Virus record (IMG/VR): IMGVR_UViG_3300033121_001723
Location: 11,954 to 75,953 of that record
Source: a virus
Taxonomy: Duplodnaviria > Caudoviricetes
Direction: 5' to 3' (one strand)
Length of the DNA stretch: 64,000 bases
The notes beneath the pieces were generated by a model, which had not been told where the DNA came from, made no database searches, and saw only the letters and a list, made by a program, of their open reading frames with translations. The number at the start of each line of letters is the position of its first letter. The first letter of the stretch is position 1. Shown here piece by piece: positions 2,825 through 44,205 of the stretch. Both the position numbers and the translations under genes were made by a program.

Positions 2825-3163
2825 TCAGAACCATCTGAACAGTCTGACATACCACGGACATTGACTGTCCGCATCTACCCGGGCATTCATTTGGAGGTGG
2901 TCCCAGACCACTCGTTCAATATGCCGTACGGCGACCGAAACCCGGTGCACCTCCCACGGCTCGCTTGCCACCTGCGACGCAAAGTCTGACAGACTCTGGC
3001 TGCCCCCCTCTGCAAAATAGCCTTCGATCAACTTGATCATCTGGCCCATCGCCACCTCATCGGTTGGATCTTCGCTCAGTTCGACGAGGAGGTCGCGGGC
3101 AAGCAACTTAGGGTCAATCCTATAGTCGCGACTCCCCTCACGAAACGACAGGCTTCCCACCAT
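2825..3163 (-). CDS. Hypothetical protein
   Basis: ORF in the operon run; start placed at ATG 3163 after GAGAGAG. Confidence 0.55.
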   Translation of the reverse strand: MVGSLSFREGSRDYRIDPKLLARDLLVELSEDPTDEVAMGQMIKLIEGYFAEGGSQSLSDFASQVASEPWEVHRVSVAVRHIERVVWDHLQMNARVDADSQCPWYVRLFRWF

Positions 3164-4655
3164 CTCTCTCGGTCTCCCAGAAATAACGTTCTGCCACTTT
3201 GAAACAGCGGAACTGGAATGCCGCACCGCTGTCCCCCTCGCCTGCCTGTACCGTCTGCTCCACGACGTCTTGCGGAAGGCCCAGCAGAATTCTCTGGGCT
3301 ATTTTTCGCCGCCCTTGCTCTGGCGGCGAGTTCAGTTCGACGACCTTGTCGATCCGTCCAGGTCTGGTGACATACGACCCGTCTGGCAACTTACGCATCA
3401 GGGCTTCATCCAGCTGCTCGGGCTTGTTTGAGGTCACGAAGACGCAGACCCCAGCCGAGGCGGAAATCCCGTCCAGGCTGTTCAGCAAACATTCGTAGCC
3501 TAAAACCACACCCTCGCGGGGCTTGTCGCCTGAAAACACCCGGTCGAGATCCTCCAACACTGCTACACAGGGGGCGTGACCATCCAGCATACGCGACCAC
3601 TCCCGGGCCAGCTCTGCATTTGTCAAACTGGCCAAGTCGTAGAGGAACACCGGCAGTCCCAACCCAGCAGCCATGGCCCGGATTACAGACGTCTTGCCAT
3701 TTCCTGGCGGACCTACCAGTCCGTAGCCCCGTTTCCACGGTACTCCGCGAGCAGTAAACCAGCTGCGGCCTGTTTTCCAGTGGGTCAATTCTTGGAATAT
3801 CTCCAAGACCTCGTCCGACACCCAAAGGTCCTCCAACCGGCTACCTAGAGACAACCCGCGTCTGATGTCGTTACTGGACAGCATACATGGAGTATCTCCA
3901 GCCTCTTCGAACGGGGTTGACCCACTGGTATCTAGCTCTAACGCCGCCCCGGTGGCCTGCGCCTGCATAGCAGCTGCTACCTGAGTAGCCGGACTGTCGT
4001 CTGACGGCTCTCCAGGTCTCAGGACTCGCGACTTCGAACTGACATAGGATTGAGCCGTACCGGTGATAGGGCGTACGAAAAACCTGTTGTATTCGGCCGC
4101 ACTGGCGTACCACTGAGTCCGGGTCCGGACCATGTCAGTCAACACATGATCCGGAGACAACAACCAACGAAATGTCACCAGAACGGTGTTCACGCTGTTG
4201 TTGTCGTTGATGTTGTTGCCGGCGCTGTTGACTGACTTTGTAAAGATGTTGTTGCCGGCGCTGTTGACTGACTTTGTAAACCAGACAGGCTTCCATCCAT
4301 GCACCAACCATAGAGATTGTAGAGGGATCAGCCGGTATAGAAACGGAATGTATCCGCCACCTTGATCTTCGTGGTAGGCCGCCCAGCTCCGTTCGCGAGT
4401 CAAGCACTCCTGAGTGGCCAACCTGTGCGTGGTGCCGTATTGAACGTTGTTGACGTGCACCATTCTTCCGTTAGCTTTCAGCCATCGGTAGACTTGCCAC
4501 GCGTATACATCCGTACCGAACGTGTCGATCCGGATGATCACCAGGGATTCGATGTACCGCCAGAATCCGAGCACCGCGTTTCTGGCGGCGTAGAACACAG
4601 TACTGACCGCCGCCAAGCCTGCCAGTACCCAAGCCCCATGTTCGTCCAAGTCCAT
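3138..4655 (-). CDS. BCS1-like AAA+ ATPase with N-terminal membrane anchor
   Basis: N-terminal hydrophobic helix; PWKRGYGLVGPPGNGKTS (Walker A), AVLEDLD (Walker B), FVTSN, RPGRID (SRH). Confidence 0.8.
   Translation of the reverse strand: MDLDEHGAWVLAGLAAVSTVFYAARNAVLGFWRYIESLVIIRIDTFGTDVYAWQVYRWLKANGRMVHVNNVQYGTTHRLATQECLTRERSWAAYHEDQGGGYIPFLYRLIPLQSLWLVHGWKPVWFTKSVNSAGNNIFTKSVNSAGNNINDNNSVNTVLVTFRWLLSPDHVLTDMVRTRTQWYASAAEYNRFFVRPITGTAQSYVSSKSRVLRPGEPSDDSPATQVAAAMQAQATGAALELDTSGSTPFEEAGDTPCMLSSNDIRRGLSLGSRLEDLWVSDEVLEIFQELTHWKTGRSWFTARGVPWKRGYGLVGPPGNGKTSVIRAMAAGLGLPVFLYDLASLTNAELAREWSRMLDGHAPCVAVLEDLDRVFSGDKPREGVVLGYECLLNSLDGISASAGVCVFVTSNKPEQLDEALMRKLPDGSYVTRPGRIDKVVELNSPPEQGRRKIAQRILLGLPQDVVEQTVQAGEGDSGAAFQFRCFKVAERYFWETERDGGKPVVS
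4209..4280. repeat. Perfect 36-bp tandem duplication inside the AAA gene
   Basis: GATGTTGTTGCCGGCGCTGTTGACTGACTTTGTAAA x2; encodes FTKSVNSAGNNI twice. Confidence 0.95.
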
Positions 4656-34546: not shown

Positions 34547-35686
34547 TCACTCTGTGTCCCGCAATGCCCGGCGGATAATGGACTGGCCCGGTGTGGTCTG
34601 TTTCAGACTGTTGACCGGCTCGTTCCACCCCCGTTCGACCAAAGCCTTGGTTATCAAACTCCACAACGCGTCCGGCTGATAATCGTCCGGTTTAACACCG
34701 TCCGGCATCCGGATAATGATTGAATGGTTTGGGGCGCATGCCTGCAGCATGCGTACCGCTTGAGCTGCTTTGTCTCGCCCCGACTGCGGGTTAACCCGCC
34801 AGGTATCGCCGTCTAGCAGACTCACCACAAATCCCTCGCGGGACAACTCCGACAACAGCTCCGCTTGCGGACTACTGATACTCGACCCGAAACACGATAC
34901 GAATTGAGGTCCGAAAGTCCACGTCGTTGTCACACCCTCGACCAAGCAGACAATCTTGTATTTCTTGGCTGCGTCGAAGTTGTACAGGTATTCAGACTTT
35001 GAAAACTGATTGGAATTGTAGTACTTCTGGACCCTGAACCGTTTCCAGTCCAAATCACCAACGTACCGGCCCTGCCAGCCCACGCAGATCCCGTTCGAAT
35101 ACACAGGTATAACAATCCGACCCTGCATCGCCGGATACTGTTCTGCCGCCTCTTCGCAATAGCCGACAGAGTACTTGTCCGACAGCTCACGAATGTTGTA
35201 CCCACGAATCCCCAGGTACTGGACAGCTGGGTGTGTCAAAGGCAGGTCGCCGATCGGAATCACGGCCCCCGGTGGATCGACAGCTCCCGCCACTCTGGTG
35301 GACTGTTTTACACCTTTTCTGATATTCGACACGCACCGGATCTGGTGTGGCATCGCCCCGTAAATCTCGTAGTCGAGCTGGGCCGTTCTCCCGGGGTTTC
35401 TCTGGTAGCAATACTCATTGTTGCAATGCAACAAGTTTTTGTGGCGGCTCTTGGCCTCCGGGTCCCACATCCCCCACAGATAACTCACCCAAAGCCTGCG
35501 TCTCGTGTCGCCGCACCATGGGCAATTAACCCGGTAGTACTCGCCGCCTCTGTACTTTACTTGGGGGCCAGACAGCGTTAATTCCGGGTACGGAACAGCC
35601 TCGATGCCAGCGTTGGCTACTTGCACGTCTCCGAACCGTTGCAACAGCCGTCCGTACAACAGCTCGTTTAACGGTCGACCTATCAT
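34547..35686 (-). CDS. DnaG-type DNA primase
   Basis: CPWCGD...HCNNEYC zinc finger; GRIVIPV, VGWQGR, KYYN; TOPRIM LVEG and LLDGD. Confidence 0.88.
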   Translation of the reverse strand: MIGRPLNELLYGRLLQRFGDVQVANAGIEAVPYPELTLSGPQVKYRGGEYYRVNCPWCGDTRRRLWVSYLWGMWDPEAKSRHKNLLHCNNEYCYQRNPGRTAQLDYEIYGAMPHQIRCVSNIRKGVKQSTRVAGAVDPPGAVIPIGDLPLTHPAVQYLGIRGYNIRELSDKYSVGYCEEAAEQYPAMQGRIVIPVYSNGICVGWQGRYVGDLDWKRFRVQKYYNSNQFSKSEYLYNFDAAKKYKIVCLVEGVTTTWTFGPQFVSCFGSSISSPQAELLSELSREGFVVSLLDGDTWRVNPQSGRDKAAQAVRMLQACAPNHSIIIRMPDGVKPDDYQPDALWSLITKALVERGWNEPVNSLKQTTPGQSIIRRALRDTE

Positions 35687-35714: not shown

Positions 35715-37382
35715 TTAAAGAGTCACAACCACAGCAGGCTGCTGCAACACCGCCGCCAGAGAACCTTCACTGGCTTCCGTGTCATACTGTTCATCGTCTC
35801 CCGACTGCACTTGATTGAGGTGGCTGGCCAACTCGATCCGTCGCCGGTTGTAGTTGATGGCGAACTTCTTGCCGCCGTCTTCCATGCGAGCCATGGCCCC
35901 GTTGATATAGAGGATCTTCGGCTCCGGTAGTCCGGCCGACCGCCGGGTTTTGCTGAAGTTCAGCAGAGTACAGCTGCTGCCTTTGTCCTTGGTGCCTAGG
36001 CAGGCGCAGTAAGTCAGGGGTGCCGCGAACGCCGAACTCTCAGCAGCCTGCGTATGACTTGTCACACGCGTTGGATCTCCCTTATTCCCTTCATTGTTCA
36101 ACTGGTGGAGCAGCCACACCGGTGTGTTGAATTTACCGGCCACGATCAGCCGGCAACGATCCACATAGCTGGCAACCGCATGTCGCTTATGCTTGGTCTC
36201 GTCCAAGCTCTCTTTGGCCAGCCAGCGATTCACCGCCAACAGGACATAATCTATGATCACATTGGCAACCCCGGGGTTACCACGTCGCTGCTGATCCAGT
36301 TCGATCAGTGCGGCCACTTCCTCGATAAACCCGTCACCGGTACGGCTCTCCCGTGTGACCCCTGACAGATCGATAATCTGGATGATGTCCCGAAGTAGGG
36401 TTTGCTGCCCCATCAGTCTCTCATACTCGCCTGCCTGTACGGTACTTTGAGCATCAGTACCGAACCTGTCGGCATGGATCGCCCGTTCGTAAGGTTGGTA
36501 GTCACCTCTCAGACATGATGACAACTGCTCTGCGGGCTTGGATACCTCTGCCAAACGTCGCGTCAGAATGCTGGCGGCATTAGCCCGCAGCAAAATCTGG
36601 ATATCAGACAGCGGCTGCTCGTATGTCACCACATACACAATCTTGAACGGCGTTAGCGGCTGTCCGGCAGATTTTTGAGCGTCCCTTTTCGCCAGTTGAA
36701 CCCGGCCACTGCCGACAGCCAATGTCACAGCCATAGTCGTCTTACCGACACCCATCGGACCCAACAGCCCGTTGACGTCACCCGGCGCTGCCCCGCCTTC
36801 CATGAAGACATCGAAGAACGGGACTCCCGTGCTTTCAACAAACCTCTGGACAGACTGCTCTGTCCAGTTGTCGGGCAGTGCAGACTGCACCGGGAACTTG
36901 TCGACCTGCAGGATGTGCTGGTATCTCGCCGAAGCCTCAGCCAGCAACTCCGGCAGTTCTGGTGTGTTTCCATTGGCCAGCGACGCAGCCAGCGGAGCGT
37001 ACACGTAACGTTCCCGGAGAAACTGCCTCACGTACTCGCGAGTTATGCCGATCTCCAGCTCGGCCACCTTGACCCCATAGAACGCATAGACAAGGAGCCC
37101 AGGCCGCTCCCCCTCTGCCAGCAGTTCGAACAGGAGTTGCTCCGGAAATCCGGTAAGCTCTGAGGCGGTCTTCATGACCGTATCCGCGATGCTGGAGAAT
37201 GTCAGAGACCCGTACCGGTTGAACACATCCAGAGCGGACTTCCAAAGCAGCGCGTAGTGCTGCTCGTCTGGCAACTGGAAATGCTCAACACGGAGTAACC
37301 CGGCGGCCTCTTGGAACGCCGCCGGAGTGCGCAGCAACCGCACCAGCATCGCTTCAATCATGGCGGATGTGAACTGCGTCAT
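35715..37382 (-). CDS. DnaB-like replicative helicase
   Basis: GPMGVGKT, VTYEQ, IIDYV, LHQLN, KTRR. Confidence 0.85.
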   Translation of the reverse strand: MTQFTSAMIEAMLVRLLRTPAAFQEAAGLLRVEHFQLPDEQHYALLWKSALDVFNRYGSLTFSSIADTVMKTASELTGFPEQLLFELLAEGERPGLLVYAFYGVKVAELEIGITREYVRQFLRERYVYAPLAASLANGNTPELPELLAEASARYQHILQVDKFPVQSALPDNWTEQSVQRFVESTGVPFFDVFMEGGAAPGDVNGLLGPMGVGKTTMAVTLAVGSGRVQLAKRDAQKSAGQPLTPFKIVYVVTYEQPLSDIQILLRANAASILTRRLAEVSKPAEQLSSCLRGDYQPYERAIHADRFGTDAQSTVQAGEYERLMGQQTLLRDIIQIIDLSGVTRESRTGDGFIEEVAALIELDQQRRGNPGVANVIIDYVLLAVNRWLAKESLDETKHKRHAVASYVDRCRLIVAGKFNTPVWLLHQLNNEGNKGDPTRVTSHTQAAESSAFAAPLTYCACLGTKDKGSSCTLLNFSKTRRSAGLPEPKILYINGAMARMEDGGKKFAINYNRRRIELASHLNQVQSGDDEQYDTEASEGSLAAVLQQPAVVVTL

Positions 37383-38095
37383 TTGTGTCCCTTGTGGTTA
37401 CGGTAGGCATACAGTTGTTCCATAGTGGCCTCCCTCAGTTTCTGTGGGATTTTGCTACCCCACAACCTGTCGTACAAATCCCTTTTCAGCAGGTATTCCG
37501 TCACGGCCGCTGGAAGCAGCTTATCGGCCAGATCGCTTATCCCGGTCTGCACGGCCAGGCAGTACCGGAACAGGATCGTCAGCACCGATCTTCGGTCGGC
37601 TACCAGCTCCCGGTAAATCTGGGTCTGGCTCTGGTAAGCCGGATTCCGTGTCAACGTAGAAAACTGCGTGTTGGCGTAGTCCGACTGCATCCGCAGCGAC
37701 GCTGCCAGCACTTCTTCAGAGCTCGGCGAGTTGTAATACTTGGCGAGGTTCGCCTGAGATAACGCGCCGCGAGGCTCCGGAGGTCGGACACCCGGCCATG
37801 ACTCCAGAAACAAATCGATCAGCCTGAGCGGGTCTATTCCGCTAGCCGACAAGGCCGCAAACTCCGGCCAGATCGGATTGTGTCGACGCCCATGGGATGT
37901 CGTTCCCCCATCCCAACTTTTCCGGAAAGCCGCCACCTCGGCTAACGCATCCGAATCTGTTCCATTACGGGCGTTGAGCATATTGGACACCGAATTGACC
38001 CAATACTCCCGGATTTGCAGCTCCCACGGAGTCGGCTCCGGTATTACTTGGGCCTTGTTTGCCAACGCCCGTCGGAGCTTCGGATTGTTACTCAT
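37379..38095 (-). CDS. Hypothetical protein in the replication operon
   Basis: AAGGGG upstream of ATG 38095; ATGA-coupled to the helicase. Confidence 0.65.
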   Translation of the reverse strand: MSNNPKLRRALANKAQVIPEPTPWELQIREYWVNSVSNMLNARNGTDSDALAEVAAFRKSWDGGTTSHGRRHNPIWPEFAALSASGIDPLRLIDLFLESWPGVRPPEPRGALSQANLAKYYNSPSSEEVLAASLRMQSDYANTQFSTLTRNPAYQSQTQIYRELVADRRSVLTILFRYCLAVQTGISDLADKLLPAAVTEYLLKRDLYDRLWGSKIPQKLREATMEQLYAYRNHKGHK

Positions 38096-38108
38096 TCCTG
38101 GGACCCCT

Positions 38109-39605
38109 TTACAGTCGTACTGGCTGCCGCACCTGCGTCCAGCCCTTTTTCTTATACCTACGAAATCGGGCTGCGGACTTCGCAGCAAACCTCTTATCGA
38201 AGTAATCCCAACAGTCGTACACGATCCCGATCGCCTTCCCAGACGCCTCGTGAGTTCGCACCACCCGGCCTGGGGCTTGATCGTCCGCTGTCTCACTATC
38301 TCCAGCGGCACCACGGATCAGAACCGCTAGCTGCTCGAAGGAGACCCCCGTACTCCACACGTCGGTCGCGATCACGTGCCGCAGTGTCCCCTCTTCAAAC
38401 TCTTGCCGCATCCGCTCGCGGTCGGCCGGCTTTAACGCTTTGTACCCTTCAGGGAGCGTCCCTTCGGCTACAAACTCGTCAAATCGGGCGTCTTCTGAAT
38501 TACCGTAGCACAATGAGTAACCAGGAAGCAGCTGATGCAGCCGTACGGCATGCTCGATGGTGTCCACCAAGATCAATACCTGTTCATCGCCGTGTGCCAA
38601 GGCAGCATTGGCGATGATGGTGTTGCGGACGGTGTTGTTCCACAAACCGTGCTTCTTGACGTAGGTGTCATTGCTGTAACCGGCCGCCGGATTGATGTCC
38701 AGCTGCACATTGAGCCACCGGACCTCGACCGGCACCACCAGCCCGTTGGCTGTCCCCTCTTGCCAGCTCAGGTAGAAAATTTGAGGCCCGAACATGTACT
38801 CCAGCCGAATACTGGTCCCGTCCTTACGCCCGTACGGCGTCGCGGTGAATGCGAAATTGCGAGAGTACACGAACGTCCTGAGAATCATCTCAGCGTCGGT
38901 GTCCGTGCATAACTCATGCGCCTCGTCGGCAAACATGAAATCGACGTCCGGATCGGCGTGCCGCAGCGATTTTGACACGTACACGGTAACCCGGCCGTAC
39001 TTTCGCTTGCCGTCCCCGACGAACCCCACTTGCGGAATAACACGGGTCAGACGCCTGAAAATGGTTTGAGCCACATCCCTGCGTCTGGTAACGACAGCAA
39101 ACTTGGCTGTCGGAAACAGGACGGCCAACCGACACAGCATCTCCGTCTTACCAAAAGCCGGAATGGCGTTGATCACACCGCCGAGAGCTTGGGCCACTAT
39201 GCCAACACACTCCCTTTGTCTGTACCGCCAGACGGTAAATCTGGCGTCGAGCCGCTCCCAATCGGGTACGTAGGCTTTAGGTCTAGTCTTGGCCGGAGAC
39301 AGGTCTTGATGGGTCAGGCTGTAACCACAACCCGCCGCGATTTGTGCCAATCTCGGCAGCATCCCCAACGATGTCTGTAACTCGCCTGTCGGCAACTTGT
39401 CGTATAGCCGTCGCGGTGTTATCTCCACATGCCGTCGTGTCCCGTCGGCCTGCAGCTGCTCCACGCCCCGCAGATGTTCAACATGATTGTACACCAGTGG
39501 TTTTGTCAGCATATCCCACAGATACTGCGGAATAGGCGACCCGTCGGCCATGCCGATAGCGATGAATATGCCGTGCCTGCGCACCAGCAGTTGCGGACCG
39601 CTCAT
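38109..39605 (-). CDS. Superfamily 2 helicase (UvsW-like)
   Basis: YRQ, AIPAFGKT, ADEAH, FTATP, ATDVWSTGV, QAPGRVVR. Confidence 0.9.
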   Translation of the reverse strand: MSGPQLLVRRHGIFIAIGMADGSPIPQYLWDMLTKPLVYNHVEHLRGVEQLQADGTRRHVEITPRRLYDKLPTGELQTSLGMLPRLAQIAAGCGYSLTHQDLSPAKTRPKAYVPDWERLDARFTVWRYRQRECVGIVAQALGGVINAIPAFGKTEMLCRLAVLFPTAKFAVVTRRRDVAQTIFRRLTRVIPQVGFVGDGKRKYGRVTVYVSKSLRHADPDVDFMFADEAHELCTDTDAEMILRTFVYSRNFAFTATPYGRKDGTSIRLEYMFGPQIFYLSWQEGTANGLVVPVEVRWLNVQLDINPAAGYSNDTYVKKHGLWNNTVRNTIIANAALAHGDEQVLILVDTIEHAVRLHQLLPGYSLCYGNSEDARFDEFVAEGTLPEGYKALKPADRERMRQEFEEGTLRHVIATDVWSTGVSFEQLAVLIRGAAGDSETADDQAPGRVVRTHEASGKAIGIVYDCWDYFDKRFAAKSAARFRRYKKKGWTQVRQPVRL

Positions 39606-39720: not shown

Positions 39721-39753
39721 GAACCCGGGGTGCCGGCGAAGCACCCCGGGTTC
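39721..39753. other. 13-bp perfect stem-loop (terminator-like or RNA-stabilising)
   Basis: GAACCCGGGGTGC-CGGCGAA-GCACCCCGGGTTC; the T-tract follows only on +. Confidence 0.7.
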
Positions 39754-39771: not shown

Positions 39772-40020
39772 TTAACCAGTATGCGCTGGTTTTTCCAGTG
39801 TCGTCTTTCTGGCAAAACCTTGGGCGGCTGGCTTAGCCCCCTCCAAGGCCCGTTCTACCGCCAGGCACGGCTGACAAGCCCGTCCGGAACGTCCCGGTCC
39901 GATCTTGCAACCACAAGCCCTGCAATAACGTTGCGCGAATTGACTGGTTGGCACCGGTACTGGAAGGTTGTATGTATCCGCCAGCTTAGCCAGCTGTACC
40001 AACGCGGCGTTGACCAACAT
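39772..40020 (-). CDS. Small zinc-finger protein
   Basis: GGAG RBS; CRAC...CQPC. Confidence 0.6.
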   Translation of the reverse strand: MLVNAALVQLAKLADTYNLPVPVPTSQFAQRYCRACGCKIGPGRSGRACQPCLAVERALEGAKPAAQGFARKTTLEKPAHTG

Positions 40021-40033
40021 AATGACTCCTGAA

Positions 40034-40960
40034 CTACTGCGATTTGGTGAAGTCCCGAAAAGCTTGTTGCTCCTCCGGACGTACAAAAAACTGGTCTGGA
40101 CTGAACAATGGTCCATGGGCGCCTCCCTGCGTCAGCAGGTCGATCCACACGTCTCTCAGGTAACTTACCAAGATCTGTGACGAACGCACGGCCGCTACCG
40201 CCCGGCTTCTGGCGACATGACATCCGAATACACGAAACAGGAAATTCCGCGGGTCCCGCATATCGACCAGCCTCGCCTCCTCTGGAGTCTGCGGCATCCA
40301 GCACCAATAGACAGTCCAACAGCTGAAATGCCGCCCGGTCAATTGCCCGTCCAGGCACTCTGAAAACGTCTGCGGCCTCAAACCCAAGTACGCATACAGT
40401 GCCGCATGCCTGTCAGGCTTATCCCTGTTGATATACCAACGCGGATCGAGCACATTTCCTACAAACCGGCCAAACCATTCGGCAGAGATAGTCGGTACGA
40501 ACTGGGCCATTGACCACAGAGGGTGGGAATGCACCAAATCCAGCGGCACCGGTTTCTTCGCGTCCCGGGCGTAATCCGCCAGCTGATAGGAGACCACATC
40601 CGACGCTACAGACTTCCGCCACCCACCGAGGCTGGCGGGATAAGCCGGGGCACTGGCTAAAGCATGCAGGGTATCTTGGGTTCCAAACCCACCCGGGGCC
40701 AGTCTGGGAGACCCCAACTGTACTTGGATGTCCGGGTTGTATTTCGCATGCTGCAGTAAAGCCGACACAAGCGAAGCATTCTCATACCCGCCCGTAACCC
40801 GGATCACTCCGGTCAATTTAGCGGAGTCTATGTACTCCCAAACCTCCAGCCGTGTCCGAGAAGGAACACGGCCGCCAGAACGGCAAGTCCAAACTTGGCC
40901 TTCGTCATCCAGGTGCAAAAACAGAGGGTATTCATCGTCTTGGATTAAAGGTCTCGACAT
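40034..40960 (-). CDS. IS110/Nop-domain-related (Tas-like) protein
   Basis: HPLWSMAQFVPTIS...FVGNVLDPRWY...LYAYLGL resembles the IS110 C-terminal/Nop signature; C-terminal AAVRSSQILVSYLRDVW helix. Confidence 0.55.
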   Translation of the reverse strand: MSRPLIQDDEYPLFLHLDDEGQVWTCRSGGRVPSRTRLEVWEYIDSAKLTGVIRVTGGYENASLVSALLQHAKYNPDIQVQLGSPRLAPGGFGTQDTLHALASAPAYPASLGGWRKSVASDVVSYQLADYARDAKKPVPLDLVHSHPLWSMAQFVPTISAEWFGRFVGNVLDPRWYINRDKPDRHAALYAYLGLRPQTFSECLDGQLTGRHFSCWTVYWCWMPQTPEEARLVDMRDPRNFLFRVFGCHVARSRAVAAVRSSQILVSYLRDVWIDLLTQGGAHGPLFSPDQFFVRPEEQQAFRDFTKSQ

Positions 40961-43094
40961 GATCGACTAGGTGTCCCACGGCCTCGTGTGTGATCAGTAT
41001 GCACTGCAGGCTGCGGCTCTGGGACAACTGATGCAACTTACCCAACGCCAAGTCCAGACATCCGATGTTATCGGAGTCCAGATAAGCTGTTGGCTCGTCG
41101 AGGCATAGCATCCCCAGGTCCTTCGCGAAGCGTGCGTTGATTGCGATACGAAACGCCAAGGCCGTGATCACCCTCTGACCGCCGGACAACCGCACCAACG
41201 GTTGGTTCCGACCATCGAAAAAGTTCGCGCGGTAGCTCAGTCCGTCCTCCGATTGTAACCGAAATTCCGCATTAAACATGCTCAGAATATCGTTAGTGTC
41301 ATAAGCCAATGCGTCCAAGTACCTCTTGGCCGCCAAGCTTGGTAAATTGTCTCGATGCAGCACCGTCCTGATGCTATTCAACTTTTCCCGAATCTTTCGG
41401 GTCTTCTGGGCGCTGACCACAATGGCCATCGCACCGGCGAGTCGCAGGTTCACTGCTGCGATATCTGCTGTCAGCCGAACGACAGCCGCTTCTGCGACTG
41501 CCAACTCGGTTTTTGCTTTGCGCTTGGCCTCCAGAGACTGGAGTGCCGTAGCGTAGGCGGCCTCAGACGGGTTGGCTTGGATCTGCCGCAACAACTCCTC
41601 TTCCGCAGCCACCAGCTGGGCTTGTGTCGTATGTGCCGCAGCCAACTCCGGCTGCAGCACGTTGGACAAAGCTTGAACGTTATCTCGACCGGACCGCCAT
41701 GTCTGAATTGACGCAAGCAATGCGCTGGCAGCCTGCCAATCCGCCTCCGGTACGTCGAACACCGGTGGTGTCGCCATGTCGAAGTCGGCGAGGGCTTTCT
41801 TAGCGGCGTTGAGCGATGCGCGAGCTCTCAGCTCAGAGTCCGCGTAAGAAGTCGCCTTCAACTGATGAGCCTCCACGGCCGCAGCATACTTGCGATACGA
41901 GGCCAGTTGGGCCTCTAACCGCGGCTTATCGACCTTGGCTTGTCGCACCGAAGCCGCCAGCCCGTCGTCCGATTTACGTTTGCACGTCGGACATACCGTG
42001 GCCCCGTCCTCGAACGTCTTCAGCAGCCCGTCCGCTTCTGCTAACTTGATCGCGGTCTTTTCGATCTCGGCCCGCACATCCGTCACTTCCGCAGGTCCGG
42101 TCCAAGTTACCTCAAGCACAGGCGGCTTGCCCAGCCTTTCCAACTCGGCCTCCGCCCTGGTCAAGGCCTCTGCGAGCGGCGTCCTGCGGGCTGCGTAAGA
42201 TTGAGCTGACACCCGCTGACTCAGCCGCCCTTTGGACTCCTCCTCCCGCGACTCAGCGGCGGTAATCGCCTTGGACAACAGCTCGTACTGACTACGATAC
42301 CCCTCCAGTTTATTGGATAGCTCGACAATCCTGGCCGCACCCTGCAATTTACGGCTTTCGGCTTCCGGTCGTTTCGCCGCGGCTTCATTAGCCTTCCTGC
42401 GGCAGTCCAGCACCGCGGAATCTTCGTCCGGCTCCGACCAGTTCCGTAGATGTTCCAGCCGAGAAACTTTACCGGCCTCGACCGTCAAGGCCTCAACCAA
42501 GGCGGCCTTCTCGGCCTCGATCGAAGCTACGTCCGGTGGCGTGATCTCCGGAGTGGTTGCCAGCTTGGTGCCGATCACCGCCCAGCACTCCTCCGCCCGG
42601 CTCAGCCCGAACAGCTTCTGGAACGCCACAGCCCTGTCTGCCGGACGTGTCTTGGCCGAGAACGGAGCAAACAGCTCTTCCTGCCCGACAAACACGTAGT
42701 CCGACAGCACCTGCTGTGTCGTACCAAGTAGCGCCAAAACCCGCTCCGTGGTTTTGGTATCCCCCTTCACCGACTCGATCTCAACACCGGCGGCGTTGAA
42801 AAGCGTAATGCTTGTCTGACCTCCTTTGAGGTACCGCTTCACAACCGCCCTGAAATCCCCATGCAGGAACTCCACCTCGACCAGTGATTGTGTCGGGTTG
42901 TCTGCCAGCTGTGAAACGTTCTCGGCCTTGGTTCCATCTTCCAGCGACCCCACCAAGGCAAATGGGATGGCTTTCACCGCATTGGACTTCCCGGAGCCGT
43001 TAGGCCCCAGAAACGCCGTCACCCCCGGCGGCAACTTCATTACCCGGTCTTGGTGCTGGCACCAGTTCACCAATCGCACACTTGTCACTCGCAT
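40932..43094 (-). CDS. sbcC: SbcC/Rad50-like SMC ATPase
   Basis: GPNGSGKS, coiled coil with CPTC hook, LSGGQ, LDEPT, ITHE. Confidence 0.92.
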   Translation of the reverse strand: MRVTSVRLVNWCQHQDRVMKLPPGVTAFLGPNGSGKSNAVKAIPFALVGSLEDGTKAENVSQLADNPTQSLVEVEFLHGDFRAVVKRYLKGGQTSITLFNAAGVEIESVKGDTKTTERVLALLGTTQQVLSDYVFVGQEELFAPFSAKTRPADRAVAFQKLFGLSRAEECWAVIGTKLATTPEITPPDVASIEAEKAALVEALTVEAGKVSRLEHLRNWSEPDEDSAVLDCRRKANEAAAKRPEAESRKLQGAARIVELSNKLEGYRSQYELLSKAITAAESREEESKGRLSQRVSAQSYAARRTPLAEALTRAEAELERLGKPPVLEVTWTGPAEVTDVRAEIEKTAIKLAEADGLLKTFEDGATVCPTCKRKSDDGLAASVRQAKVDKPRLEAQLASYRKYAAAVEAHQLKATSYADSELRARASLNAAKKALADFDMATPPVFDVPEADWQAASALLASIQTWRSGRDNVQALSNVLQPELAAAHTTQAQLVAAEEELLRQIQANPSEAAYATALQSLEAKRKAKTELAVAEAAVVRLTADIAAVNLRLAGAMAIVVSAQKTRKIREKLNSIRTVLHRDNLPSLAAKRYLDALAYDTNDILSMFNAEFRLQSEDGLSYRANFFDGRNQPLVRLSGGQRVITALAFRIAINARFAKDLGMLCLDEPTAYLDSDNIGCLDLALGKLHQLSQSRSLQCILITHEAVGHLVDHVETFNPRR

Positions 43095-44205
43095 CGATCT
43101 CGGCTCCCCACCGTTGAACAATCTCATCTAACACCGTTGCCGGAGGCCTGGGAGACTCCAGCAGCTGTAACGTATCCGGCTTGATCGCCGAGTCGGATTC
43201 CACCAGGGCGTCCAGACAAGCCGACAACGTCGCATCTACGACCTTGGAGCTGTCGATCACCGTGTTGAACCGGATCAAATCTTCCTTAGACTCCTCCAGC
43301 AGTTTCAGCCACCAGTGGGCCTTTCCATCCAGTGCAGATGTAATCTTCCGGTACCCGTCTGCGAACTCGGCTGGGTACGAAACTTCACACAATGGCTTAC
43401 TGAGCTCTGGCGGCAGCTGTCCAATCGTCGCCAGATTCTCCACCAAGCTGACCAACTTATCCAGCTGGTCGGAAGAATCGATGCGGACCTTCAAGCACTG
43501 ACGGGTCTTGAGCCGCACTGACCTGTAAGACAATTGCCGCCGCCCCGAGGAATCCACACCACCGTCGAAGCAGTACCAGAACATCTTCTCTGGAGGCTCA
43601 GCCAGATTCCGCATGCTCATCGACCCTGCTGAAAACATCGTCACAGGGCCTCGTGACGTATCGTGGGTTGTCACTTGGTGTTGATGGTAGTCTCCGGTCA
43701 GGATGTACCTGGCGTAGGGGACGTCCCGTACCGAACACTCAGGGTTCGTCAGCGACCCCATGTGCTCTGACCAGACTTGGTGACACACCAAGATGTCTGT
43801 GTCATCAGGTATTTTTGCAAACTCGGACTGTACTTCAGCACCTGCCGTCCAGTCCAAGCCGTAAAACCGCATGCCTGCAATACCGAATGCCGCTTGATGA
43901 ACATGCGTCGGATGCGGATGCACGCTCATCCACGGAGGGTACCGGCGTTCGTGCTGCCCTTGCGTGAAAAACACAGGCAGTCCTGCCGCCTGCATTCTGT
44001 CCATCTGACGACACATACCCGCCACAGCCCCGGAATCAGGGCTCTCGCTGTCGAACAAGTCTCCGGCGGCGATCAACGGACAGCCGTTATCGATGCAGAA
44101 ATCGACCAGTTGCTGCAAACTGAACAATGAATCGCCTGTCAGCGTGACCCGGTGTTTCCAAGTCAGTGTCGACAGGTGCCAGTCAGACGAATGAACAAAC
44201 GTCAT
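43000..44205 (-). CDS. sbcD: SbcD/Mre11-like nuclease
   Basis: SDWH, AGDLFD, GQHE, CHQ, GDYH metallophosphoesterase motifs; adjacent to sbcC. Confidence 0.9.
   Translation of the reverse strand: MTFVHSSDWHLSTLTWKHRVTLTGDSLFSLQQLVDFCIDNGCPLIAAGDLFDSESPDSGAVAGMCRQMDRMQAAGLPVFFTQGQHERRYPPWMSVHPHPTHVHQAAFGIAGMRFYGLDWTAGAEVQSEFAKIPDDTDILVCHQVWSEHMGSLTNPECSVRDVPYARYILTGDYHQHQVTTHDTSRGPVTMFSAGSMSMRNLAEPPEKMFWYCFDGGVDSSGRRQLSYRSVRLKTRQCLKVRIDSSDQLDKLVSLVENLATIGQLPPELSKPLCEVSYPAEFADGYRKITSALDGKAHWWLKLLEESKEDLIRFNTVIDSSKVVDATLSACLDALVESDSAIKPDTLQLLESPRPPATVLDEIVQRWGAEIDASDKCAIGELVPAPRPGNEVAAGGDGVSGA

What the first reader, a model, noticed from the sequence alone, without database searches (positions are those of the whole stretch)
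40034..40960. IS110/Nop-domain (Tas-like) protein embedded in the replication-recombination operon
Seen: HPLW...FVPTIS...FVGNVLDPRWY...LYAYLGL and a terminal AAVRSSQILVSYLRDVW helix. There is no clear IS110 DEDD or catalytic SG motif and no IS ends; the gene overlaps sbcC and has no flanking array. Established: this fold binds guide RNAs in IS110 bridge recombinases, TIGR-Tas systems and box C/D Nop proteins. Inference: a domesticated RNA-guided DNA-binding factor acting with SbcCD/UvsW/RecA, with a guide supplied in trans. Candidates in this window are the 57.4-kb array, the 60.45-kb structured region or the 39.6-39.77-kb gap.
Basis: partly seen in the sequence, partly recalled or inferred. 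Interest (0 to 1): 0.72.

Follow-up and report, generated by a model that had tools for sequence, protein, structure and literature searches.

The report
Array-less TasR-like protein behind phage SbcCD
This phage gene encodes a stripped-down relative of the RNA-guided TIGR-Tas/IS110 proteins. It has no guide-RNA array, no dimerising coiled coil and no intact cutting site, yet it is a fixed gene between the SbcCD DNA-end nuclease and a helicase in a large group of uncultured big phages. The fold therefore seems to have been recruited into DNA replication and recombination.

Summary
The ORF at 40034-40960 (-) is real and carries the quoted motifs. With a 122-sequence alignment it folds at pLDDT 94.9. 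The best match among 48,161 PDB chains is TIGR-TasR (9MTY, Z 10.7, full length), followed by IS110-type recombinases (Z 8.1-8.4) and the TasH Nop domain (Z 8.2). 85 of 122 family members touch NCBIfam's TIGR-Tas model.

The protein fails several defining Tas/IS110 features:
- It has no coiled coil.
- The RuvC acidic residues are not conserved (canonical Glu is Asn in 91%).
- It has no IS110 serine.
- No array lies within 7-10 kb in about 100 loci, and none occurs anywhere in one complete relative genome.

The gene lies between SbcC and an SF2 helicase in 21/21 and 77/77 independently anchored phage loci.

None of the proposed trans guides holds up. The 57.4-kb array is absent from 17 other Tas-carrying phages.

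Most likely it is a non-catalytic nucleic-acid-binding accessory of the SbcCD/helicase machinery. A cryptic guide RNA is not excluded. It probably belongs to the array-less "divergent tas clade" that Xu et al. (2026) left as an open question. This scan has met the same family on at least eight other phage genomes.

The parts
40034..40960 (-). Tas-like gene (308 aa): array-less, coiled-coil-less TasR-family homolog
   Evidence: ORF. AF2 model pLDDT 94.9. Best PDB fold match 9mty_B TasR, Z 10.7, 225 residues aligned over model 11-302. NF052498 hit at residues 141-194. Single copy in the record.
40610..40930 (-). N-terminal RuvC/RNase H-like domain (residues ~11-117) with a non-canonical pocket
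   Evidence: Matches RuvX/YqgF, poxvirus resolvase, RuvC and the RuvC domains of Cas12/TnpB at Z 5.4-7.1. Family residue frequencies: D18 59%, N61 91% (where I infer the canonical Glu to lie, from its place in the fold), H115 87% (Arg in this protein), D/E121 97%.
40040..40606 (-). C-terminal Nop/HhH-type domain (residues ~119-307)
   Evidence: TasH chains 21kl_A, 9w03_A and 9w04_A: Z 8.2-8.4, rmsd 3.4-3.6, 140-146 residues aligned. hhalign places family 146-206 on SpTasH 137-190. The helix runs to residue 307 of 308, so there is no C-terminal Y/H loop.
40436..40447 (-). DPRW motif (residues 172-175), the most conserved feature of the family
   Evidence: D 98%, P 100%, R 99%, W 93% in 122 sequences. 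It falls in a 7-residue insertion relative to SpTasH.
40373..40390 (-). YLGLRP motif (residues 191-196), aligned to the AYIGI segment of SpTasH; from my knowledge it resembles the GLxP motif that precedes the catalytic Ser in IS110 enzymes
   Evidence: G193 98%, L194 88%. Aligns to TasH 'WAYIGID'. No conserved Ser at 197-205.
40932..43127 (-). SbcC/Rad50-like ATPase, immediately upstream and overlapping the Tas-like start by 29 nt
   Evidence: Pfam SMC_N 1.3e-15, PHROG 77 1.7e-29. The SbcC stop to Tas start distance is -38 to +33 nt in 22 loci, and a 4-nt overlap in 8 of them.
43000..44205 (-). SbcD/Mre11-like phosphoesterase
   Evidence: Pfam Metallophos 5.4e-7, PHROG 100. Syntenic where the locus reaches far enough upstream (19 of the 21 Tas-anchored loci).
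39772..40020 (-). Small ORF (82 aa from the internal Met, CxxC...CxxC) occupying the slot that gene X fills in most relatives; unverified as a gene
   Evidence: ORF listing. No family.
39721..39753 (-). Perfect 14-bp GC hairpin with a 5-nt loop in the gap before the helicase; terminator- or stabiliser-like
   Evidence: Fold. Comparable 10-15-bp short-loop hairpins of unrelated sequence occur in most other loci.
38109..39605 (-). SF2 helicase (ResIII + Helicase_C), the invariable downstream partner
35715..37382 (-). DnaB-like replicative helicase, in the same module
   Evidence: PHROG 19 6.2e-16. Present in 20 of the 21 Tas-anchored loci; the remaining locus ends before that position.
34547..35686 (-). 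DNA primase, in the same module
   Evidence: PHROG 47 1.7e-26.

Best explanation
The gene encodes a highly diverged member of the TIGR-Tas (TasR-type) protein superfamily: a RuvC/RNase H-like N-domain followed by a Nop/helix-hairpin-helix C-domain. It has lost the central coiled coil, the canonical RuvC acidic residues and any guide-RNA array. It is a fixed, single-copy, operon-coupled core gene of the SbcD-SbcC-[Tas-like]-SF2 helicase-DnaB-primase block in a large lineage of uncultured phages; the four relatives rated complete are 194-226 kb. SHOWN: the fold, the remote sequence homology, the missing features and the invariant synteny. INFERRED: it acts as a non-catalytic nucleic-acid-binding accessory subunit. 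It would recognise a DNA, RNA:DNA or RNA structure through the conserved Arg/Trp-rich C-domain (DPRW, YLGLxP, FLxR, LRASQ...WL, terminal aromatic/His helix) and the remodelled RuvC pocket. It would work with SbcCD and the downstream helicase in end processing for recombination-dependent replication. It is not an array-programmed, sequence-reprogrammable effector.
For: Fold: 9mty_B TasR is the top hit of 48,161 chains (Z 10.7, 225 aa, full length). The only other Z>=8 hits are IS110 recombinases and TasH.
Sequence: 85/122 members hit NF052498 with best E 2e-9, against 2/122 for the IS110 models. hhalign maps the HhH+AYxGL core onto SpTasH. A family member sits in the seed alignment of Faure et al.'s TIGR HMM.
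Lost features: residues 119-145 (27 aa) stand where TasH has 64-136, and no helix exceeds 24 residues. D18 is conserved in only 59%, and the Glu position is Asn in 91%.
Core-gene behaviour: the gene lies between SbcC and the helicase in 21/21 Tas-anchored loci and 77/77 helicase-anchored loci. Junctions with SbcC are -38 to +33 nt. It is single copy.
No arrays: none within +-7-10 kb of about 100 loci, with a working positive control, and none genome-wide in complete G003. In five loci the gap between Tas and the helicase is 21 nt or less.
Against: No binding partner or substrate has been shown; the mechanism rests on synteny and fold. The canonical active-site positions are still conserved, though with other residues (N61 91%, H115 87%, D/E121 97%), so some chemistry or specific ligand binding at that pocket is possible. 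The C-domain is the RNA-holding domain in every characterised relative, and its strong conservation would also fit a retained RNA ligand. The array and embedded-RNA scans cannot see a single-copy or highly variable guide.
Confidence: 0.55

Rival explanations
1. It is still an RNA-guided DNA-binding protein, but the guide does not come from an array. The source could be a single-copy ncRNA elsewhere in the genome, an RNA embedded in coding sequence, or phage or host transcripts (for example R-loop or primer RNAs) that direct SbcCD or the helicase to particular sites.
For: All characterised relatives (TasA/H/R, IS110, Nop5) hold structured guide RNAs with this C-domain (PMC12045711). The C-domain is the best conserved part, including a terminal helix with a conserved aromatic/His residue (Y/F301, H/Y/F304); in PateTasR the terminal helix stacks on box C. 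Xu et al. leave 'an alternative guide RNA source' open for an array-less clade. 70% of relatives carry an adjacent gene X that other scan notes read as Cas7/RAMP-like.
Against: There is no coiled coil, which in TasR carries the guide-DNA duplex and makes the 2:1 dimer. There is no conserved non-coding space next to the gene, and in five loci the gap to the helicase is 21 nt or less. Synonymous variation is flat across the ORF in 23 related genes. No array occurs genome-wide in G003. There are no Rfam hits in the window. The window lacks gene X.
Confidence: 0.25
2. It is an active structure-specific nuclease that works with Mre11-Rad50 and a helicase. This would resemble NurA in the archaeal HerA-Mre11-Rad50-NurA operon (my knowledge), or a junction resolvase with a non-canonical active site.
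For: It has an RNase H/RuvC fold. This protein keeps D18, D19, E20 and D121. The pocket positions N61, H115 and D/E121 are conserved. The operon order nuclease-ATPase-RNase-H-fold-helicase recalls the archaeal end-resection operon.
Against: D18 is missing in 41% of members, and the second catalytic position is Asn rather than Glu in 91%. TasR uses four conserved acidic residues. This protein has Arg at 115 where the family has His. NurA did not appear among the listed fold matches, which is weak evidence.
Confidence: 0.12
3. It is a canonical TIGR-Tas-type defence or counter-defence effector that uses the 57.4-kb five-unit array in trans.
For: A real five-unit interspaced array exists 17 kb away. 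TIGR arrays can lie at flexible positions.
Against: The array model finds nothing in 17 other Tas-carrying records, including four complete genomes. There is no positional equivalent in G003 or G007. The units are a 49-nt conserved block plus one variable linker, not two short spacers flanked by box C/D motifs. The gene behaves as a core replication gene, not an accessory one.
Confidence: 0.03
4. It is a decaying or domesticated IS110-family transposase remnant with no function of its own.
For: Full-length fold similarity to IS621 and ISCro4 (Z 8.1-8.4). It shares the AYxGLxP-type motif.
Against: The family has hundreds of full-length members under purifying selection and invariant synteny. 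It has no DEDD set, no Ser, and no Pfam IS110 domains. It is closer to TasR than to IS110 by fold and by HMM.
Confidence: 0.02

Closest known systems
TIGR-TasR (TaTasR, PDB 9MTY; Faure et al. 2025, PMC12045711)
   Same: Two-domain architecture of an N-terminal RuvC-like domain plus a C-terminal Nop-type domain. It is the best structural match over the full length (Z 10.7). There is remote HMM similarity in the HhH/AYxGL core. It is phage-borne.
   Different: No central coiled coil, no TIGR array, RuvC acidic residues not conserved, far below the NCBIfam cut-off (14.7 against 100 bits), and a fixed core gene of a replication/recombination operon rather than a stand-alone locus.
Array-less 'divergent tas clade' of compact TasR proteins (Xu et al. 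2026, bioRxiv 10.64898/2026.09.09.750476)
   Same: Compact TasR-like proteins without the coiled-coil dimerisation domain and without a detectable array, encoded in densely packed viral genomes. This is very probably the same clade. A family member is in the seed alignment of the 2025 TIGR HMM.
   Different: Identity with their clade could not be verified because their node table is unpublished. The preprint's text, as held, never mentions SbcC; the invariant SbcCD-helicase context, the residue pattern of the RuvC pocket and the DPRW insertion were worked out here.
Catalytically dead stem-loop TasR (PateTasR, CsTasR) and TasA, RNA-guided transcriptional repressors (Xu et al. 2026)
   Same: Inactive RuvC scaffold retained, and a very short C-terminal tail without the Y/H tigRNA-processing loop.
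   Different: Those proteins have the coiled coil, form 2:1 dimers on a tigRNA and have stem-loop arrays. None of this is seen here.
IS110/IS1111 bridge-RNA recombinases (IS621, ISCro4; PDB 8WT6, 9T56)
   Same: RuvC-like plus Tnp/Nop-type two-domain fold (Z 8.1-8.4, about 230 residues aligned), with the AYxGLxP-type motif.
   Different: No DEDD set, no catalytic Ser, no Pfam DEDD_Tnp_IS110 or Transposase_20 signal, not mobile, single copy, and no adjacent non-coding RNA region.
Archaeal HerA-Mre11-Rad50-NurA end-resection operon (from my knowledge; not tested here)
   Same: At operon level, Mre11/Rad50 homologs are co-transcribed with an RNase-H-fold protein and a helicase.
   Different: NurA is an active nuclease of a different family and HerA is a hexameric FtsK-type ATPase. 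No fold match to NurA appeared among the listed hits.

Membership tests
TIGR-Tas (Tas proteins) | C-terminal Nop-type RNA-binding domain | tested here: met
   TasH chains Z 8.2-8.4, 140-146 residues, rmsd 3.4-3.6 over model 119-305. TasR Z 10.7 over the full length. 85/122 members hit NF052498 in this region. This concerns the fold only; RNA binding was not tested.
TIGR-Tas (Tas proteins) | [quoted passage not shown] | tested here: not met
   Only residues 119-145 lie between the RuvC-like domain and the HhH core, where TasH has residues 64-136. The longest helix in the pLDDT-94.9 model is 24 residues.
TIGR-Tas (Tas proteins) | Associated TIGR array (dual-repeat or stem-loop) near the gene | tested here: not met
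   No interspaced or tandem array within +-10 kb (22 loci) or +-7 kb (80 loci), with a working positive control. None genome-wide in complete G003. Stem-loop arrays without sequence repeats were assessed only through the lack of intergenic space.
TIGR-Tas (TasR subtype) | RuvC domain with conserved acidic catalytic residues (active TasR) | tested here: not met
   The RuvC fold is present, but D18 is 59%, the Glu position is Asn in 91%, and only D/E121 is conserved. Dead-RuvC TasRs are known.
TIGR-Tas (NCBIfam NF052498 equivalog) | Score at or above the curated cut-off (100 bits) | tested here: not met
   14.7 bits for this protein. The best family member reaches E 2e-9. Weak hits to this model also occur in 7 of 14 control genomes.
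TIGR-Tas (Tas proteins) | Binds a box C/D-type guide RNA and targets DNA through it | not testable with these tools
   Needs RIP-seq, EMSA or a structure.
TIGR-Tas (dual-repeat clade) | C-terminal Y/H loop for tigRNA processing | tested here: not met
   The terminal helix runs to residue 307 of 308. This is also absent from stem-loop Tas proteins.
IS110 family RNA-guided recombinases | DEDD RuvC catalytic set | tested here: not met
   Pfam DEDD_Tnp_IS110 hits 0/122.
IS110 family RNA-guided recombinases | Catalytic Ser (SG) downstream of the GLxP motif in the Tnp domain | tested here: not met
   Positions 197-205 are variable, and Ser at 200 occurs in only 14/122. Transposase_20 hits 2/122 weakly.
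IS110 family RNA-guided recombinases | Mobile element: variable insertion sites, multiple copies, adjacent bridge-RNA region | tested here: not met
   Same position in 98 of 98 loci. Single copy. The upstream gene overlaps or abuts it.
Box C/D Nop5/Nop56/58 | Nop domain fold match to Nop5-type proteins | tested here: inconclusive
   No Nop5, Nop56/58 or Prp31 chain was among the listed matches. The link rests on the literature.

The most novel reading that the evidence does not exclude
An array-less Tas protein has become a core replisome/recombination subunit. It would use RNA that is not array-encoded (transcripts, primers or R-loop RNA, perhaps held together with the frequently adjacent gene X product) to direct the phage SbcCD nuclease and SF2 helicase to specific DNA sites. 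That would be RNA-guided initiation or control of recombination-dependent replication in a whole lineage of large phages.
Probability: 0.15. Interest if true: 0.88.

Novelty: new variant of a known kind. Interest (0 to 1): 0.6.

Why it matters
TIGR-Tas systems were described only in 2025. The 2026 survey leaves open what an array-less, coiled-coil-less branch in viral genomes does. This gene most probably belongs to that branch, and the analysis gives that question a concrete handle. The protein is not a sporadic accessory gene. It is an invariant, operon-coupled partner of the phage Mre11-Rad50 homolog and a helicase in every one of about 100 loci examined. That points to a recruitment of an RNA-guided-system scaffold into DNA replication/recombination, and it suggests direct experiments: pull-downs with SbcCD, RIP-seq, and binding to DNA ends, hairpins and R-loops. 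If an RNA ligand is found, it would be a new mode of guide supply. If none is found, it documents how a guide-RNA-holding fold is repurposed as a protein-only DNA-metabolism factor.

Tried and rejected
- Pfam, PHROGs and PDB sequence searches gave nothing for the protein. INPHARED tblastn found no cultured-phage relative of it or of the helicase.
- The first AF2 run with 3 sequences was useless (pLDDT 44). The ESM Atlas was uninformative because its own model is poor. The BFVD fold search gave nothing.
Non-coding conservation among close relatives could therefore not be tested. The metagenome scan gave only 3 distant loci. The genome-contig scan found no cellular homolog, with narrow patterns.
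- The array core pattern has no other IMG/VR match.
- No fused or longer forms were found (weak evidence).
- G007's ~95-nt array was considered as an alternative guide source and rejected. It is 130 kb from the Tas gene, has a 40-mer plus (GCNNN)n architecture, and is not syntenic with the window's array.
- A possible displaced gene X at window 2825-3298 was rejected: hhalign probability 5% and no signature motifs aligned.
- Gene X as Cas7/RAMP could not be confirmed by sequence: 1/10 members with a Cmr6 hit at E 0.053; no Pfam, NCBIfam or PDB hits.
- The IMG/VR contig identifiers of six of my loci are not in the held (truncated) Faure supplements.
- Nop5-type chains did not appear in the fold lists. 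This is an absence only, not evidence against the superfamily link.

Full report
OBSERVATION. It overlaps the upstream sbcC ORF by 29 nt. The neighbours are as stated:
- SbcC (SMC_N/AAA_23, PHROG 77), SbcD (Metallophos, PHROG 100), an SF2 helicase (ResIII/Helicase_C, PHROG 16) and a DnaB-like helicase (PHROG 19).
- A primase and, further on, a UvsX-like recombinase.
The record is an IMG/VR virus fragment of 75,953 nt, estimated 37% complete.

WHAT THE PROTEIN IS. Pfam, PHROGs and PDB sequence searches find nothing. NCBIfam gives one weak hit, to NF052498 'TIGR-Tas system RNA-guided endonuclease' (14.7 bits against a cut-off of 100), on residues 141-194.

An exhaustive HMMER search shows a large family of about 300-aa proteins: 675 representative clusters at E<=0.001. 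Of 122 aligned members, 85 hit the same NCBIfam model (best E 2e-9), and no other family recurs. Pfam's IS110 domains hit 0 and 2 of 122. Weak hits to NF052498 also occur in control genomes, so this evidence counts only together with the fold.

With the 122-sequence alignment, AlphaFold2 gives pLDDT 94.9 and pTM 0.92. An all-against-48,161-chain structural search puts TIGR-TasR (9mty_B) first: Z 10.7, 225 residues aligned, spanning model residues 11-302. TasH follows on the C-terminal half (Z 8.4), then the IS110-type ISCro4 (Z 7.2). A second look gives TasR 10.7, ISCro4/IS621 8.1-8.4 over the full length and TasH 8.2; nothing else reaches Z 8.

The N-domain alone matches RuvX/YqgF, RuvC, poxvirus resolvase and the Cas12/TnpB RuvC domains. 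I identified SpTasH in NC_020844. hhalign then places family residues 146-206 on TasH 137-190, which is the helix-hairpin-helix plus 'AY(L/I)G(L/I)' core. The family's invariant DPRW motif falls in a 7-residue insertion.

WHAT IT LACKS.
(i) Coiled coil. All characterised Tas proteins dimerise through a central coiled coil (PMC13421893), and in TasR it also carries the guide-DNA duplex. Here only residues 119-145 separate the RuvC-like domain from the HhH core, where TasH has residues 64-136. No helix exceeds 24 residues.
(ii) RuvC catalysis. D18 is present in 59% of members. The position where I infer the canonical Glu to lie is Asn in 91%. Position 115 is His in 87% (Arg in this protein). Only D/E121 is conserved, at 97%. 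TasR uses four conserved acidic residues. The pocket is conserved but non-canonical.
(iii) IS110 serine. There is no conserved Ser after YLGLxP.
(iv) Y/H loop. The last helix ends at residue 307 of 308.
(v) Arrays. No interspaced or tandem array lies within +-10 kb in 22 loci or +-7 kb in 80 further loci, and the same scan recovers the window's own 57.4-kb array as a positive control. None was found anywhere in the complete 194-kb genome G003.

CONTEXT.
- In 21/21 IMG/VR loci found through the protein itself, the Tas-like gene lies between SbcC and the SF2 helicase, even at 24-34% identity. The wider order is SbcD-SbcC-Tas-like-(gap)-helicase-(orf311)-DnaB-like wherever the locus reaches far enough: SbcD in 19 loci, DnaB-like in 20, orf311 in 12.
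- I then anchored a search on the helicase alone, independent of the Tas gene. All 77 loci with at least 2.5 kb of upstream sequence carry the Tas-like gene between SbcC and the helicase.
- The distance from the SbcC stop to the Tas start is -38 to +33 nt, and is a 4-nt overlap in 8 of 22 loci.
- The gene is single copy.
- The four relatives that CheckV rates complete are 194-226 kb. No cultured phage in INPHARED has the protein or the helicase.
- This is the behaviour of a core replication/recombination gene, not of a sporadic defence or counter-defence locus.

THE SLOT AFTER TAS. In 55 of 79 loci a conserved 145-180-aa gene ('X') fills the interval before the helicase. In five loci Tas abuts or overlaps the helicase start, with a gap of 21 nt or less. 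X has no sequence relatives, apart from one faint Cmr6 hit in 1 of 10 members. The window lacks X. In its place are an 82-aa CxxC...CxxC ORF (39772-40020) and a perfect 14-bp hairpin (39721-39753).

THE PROPOSED TRANS GUIDES.
(a) The 57.4-kb array is real: five units with spacings of 59-72 nt. But a covariance model of its unit finds nothing in 17 other Tas-carrying records, four of them complete. Its flanking genes map to places in G003 and G007 that have no array. Its units are a 49-nt conserved block plus one variable linker, not two 8-12-nt spacers between box C/D motifs.
(b) The 39.6-39.77-kb gap contains one short-loop hairpin, with an overall z-score of -2.0. Unrelated hairpins of the same kind follow Tas or precede the helicase in most loci. 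That is terminator-like and leaves no room for guide segments.
(c) The 60.45-kb region is a divergent intergenic region with z -2.6.
(d) Xu et al. report guides embedded in coding sequence for some systems. I tested this through synonymous-site variation in 23 related Tas genes. It is flat at 0.50-0.68 throughout, dipping only where the ORF overlaps sbcC. This test has low power against variable guides.
(e) Rfam finds nothing in the window.

LITERATURE. Faure et al. 2025 define Tas proteins by the Nop domain plus TIGR arrays. Their Data S1, the seed alignment of the custom TIGR HMM, contains AF-A0A3M1VGY1, which has this family's motifs (ILDPRWF, YMGLLP, PENFLYR, LVRATQAFLAYLTRAWLD).

Xu et al. 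2026 describe 'one long branch' of compact TasR proteins without the coiled coil and without arrays in densely packed viral genomes. They call it an open question whether these use 'an alternative guide RNA source'. This family fits that description, but their node table is unpublished, so I could not confirm the identity. Xu et al. never mention SbcC, and Faure et al. mention neither SbcC nor Rad50. A library search found no paper linking Tas or Nop-domain proteins to SbcCD/Mre11-Rad50.

EARLIER SCAN NOTES. After my own tests I looked up earlier notes. At least eight other phage genomes in this scan carry the same kind of gene, and the follow-ups reached similar conclusions; they call gene X Cas7/RAMP-like. 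These are unchecked AI notes. I did not use them as evidence, and I could not verify the RAMP reading. Another note reads the 57.4-kb array as a tandem pseudoknot RNA array. I tested only its co-occurrence with the Tas gene.

INTERPRETATION.
- Shown: a diverged TasR-superfamily fold; loss of the coiled coil, the canonical catalytic residues and arrays; and invariant operon coupling to SbcCD and the helicase.
- Inferred: a non-catalytic nucleic-acid-binding accessory factor of the phage SbcCD/helicase machinery in recombination-dependent replication (about 0.55).
- Main rival: it still holds an RNA from a non-array source (about 0.25).
- Other rivals: an active NurA-like or resolvase-like nuclease (about 0.12); use of the 57.4-kb array (about 0.03); a dead IS110 remnant (about 0.02).

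LIMITS.
- Residue-level superposition on TasR/TasH RNA contacts was not possible with these tools.

Noticed in passing
L003:10976-11497, L006:10934-11455, L009:11080-11523 and 52 further loci (alignment A6); absent from the window: A conserved 145-180-aa gene 'X' lies directly after the Tas-like gene in 55 of 79 loci. Its motifs are RFN..CLG, MFLP.WW, RYAAKV.NRH, HEAF.PG, G.YKGISP and YGTFEV. It has no Pfam, PHROG, NCBIfam or PDB-sequence relative, apart from one faint Cmr6 hit. Other scan notes call it Cas7/RAMP-like. About 30% of loci, including this window, do without it.
   Followed up: partly
window 57398-57717: A five-unit interspaced array (49-nt conserved block plus a 10-23-nt linker). 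It is specific to this phage's close kin: absent from 17 other Tas-carrying records, with no positional equivalent in two complete relatives.
   Followed up: partly
G007 (IMGVR_UViG_3300018080_000104) 186,600-187,950; loci L050/L051: Fourteen tandem units of about 95 nt. Each is a conserved 40-mer (GATTATGTTCTGTTGGTCTTGGTAGTAAGTGTGCTTTGCT) followed by a variable tract with 5-nt periodicity, (GCNNN)n. It lies 130 kb from that phage's Tas-like gene. Unexplained.
   Followed up: partly
G007 381-693 (locus L042): A repeat of period 36 (12-nt sub-repeat GAGCCCGGCAT.) with 8.7 copies, next to the genome end of a record with direct terminal repeats.
   Followed up: no
window 39721-39753 (-) and 39772-40020 (-): A perfect 14-bp GC hairpin (5-nt loop, no U tract) and an 82-aa CxxC...CxxC ORF occupy the slot that gene X fills in relatives. 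The small ORF has no family and is unverified as a gene.
   Followed up: partly
window 4209-4280: An exact 36-nt tandem duplication (GATGTTGTTGCCGGCGCTGTTGACTGACTTTGTAAA x2, 100% identical).
   Followed up: no
window 43000-43127: The SbcD and SbcC ORFs as called overlap by 128 nt. SbcC probably starts at an internal Met (MRVTSVRL...), which would still leave an overlap of about 95 nt.
   Followed up: no
window 37379-38314 (-): orf311 lies between the SF2 helicase and the DnaB-like helicase. It has no family but is conserved at the same position in 12 of the 21 Tas-anchored loci.
   Followed up: no
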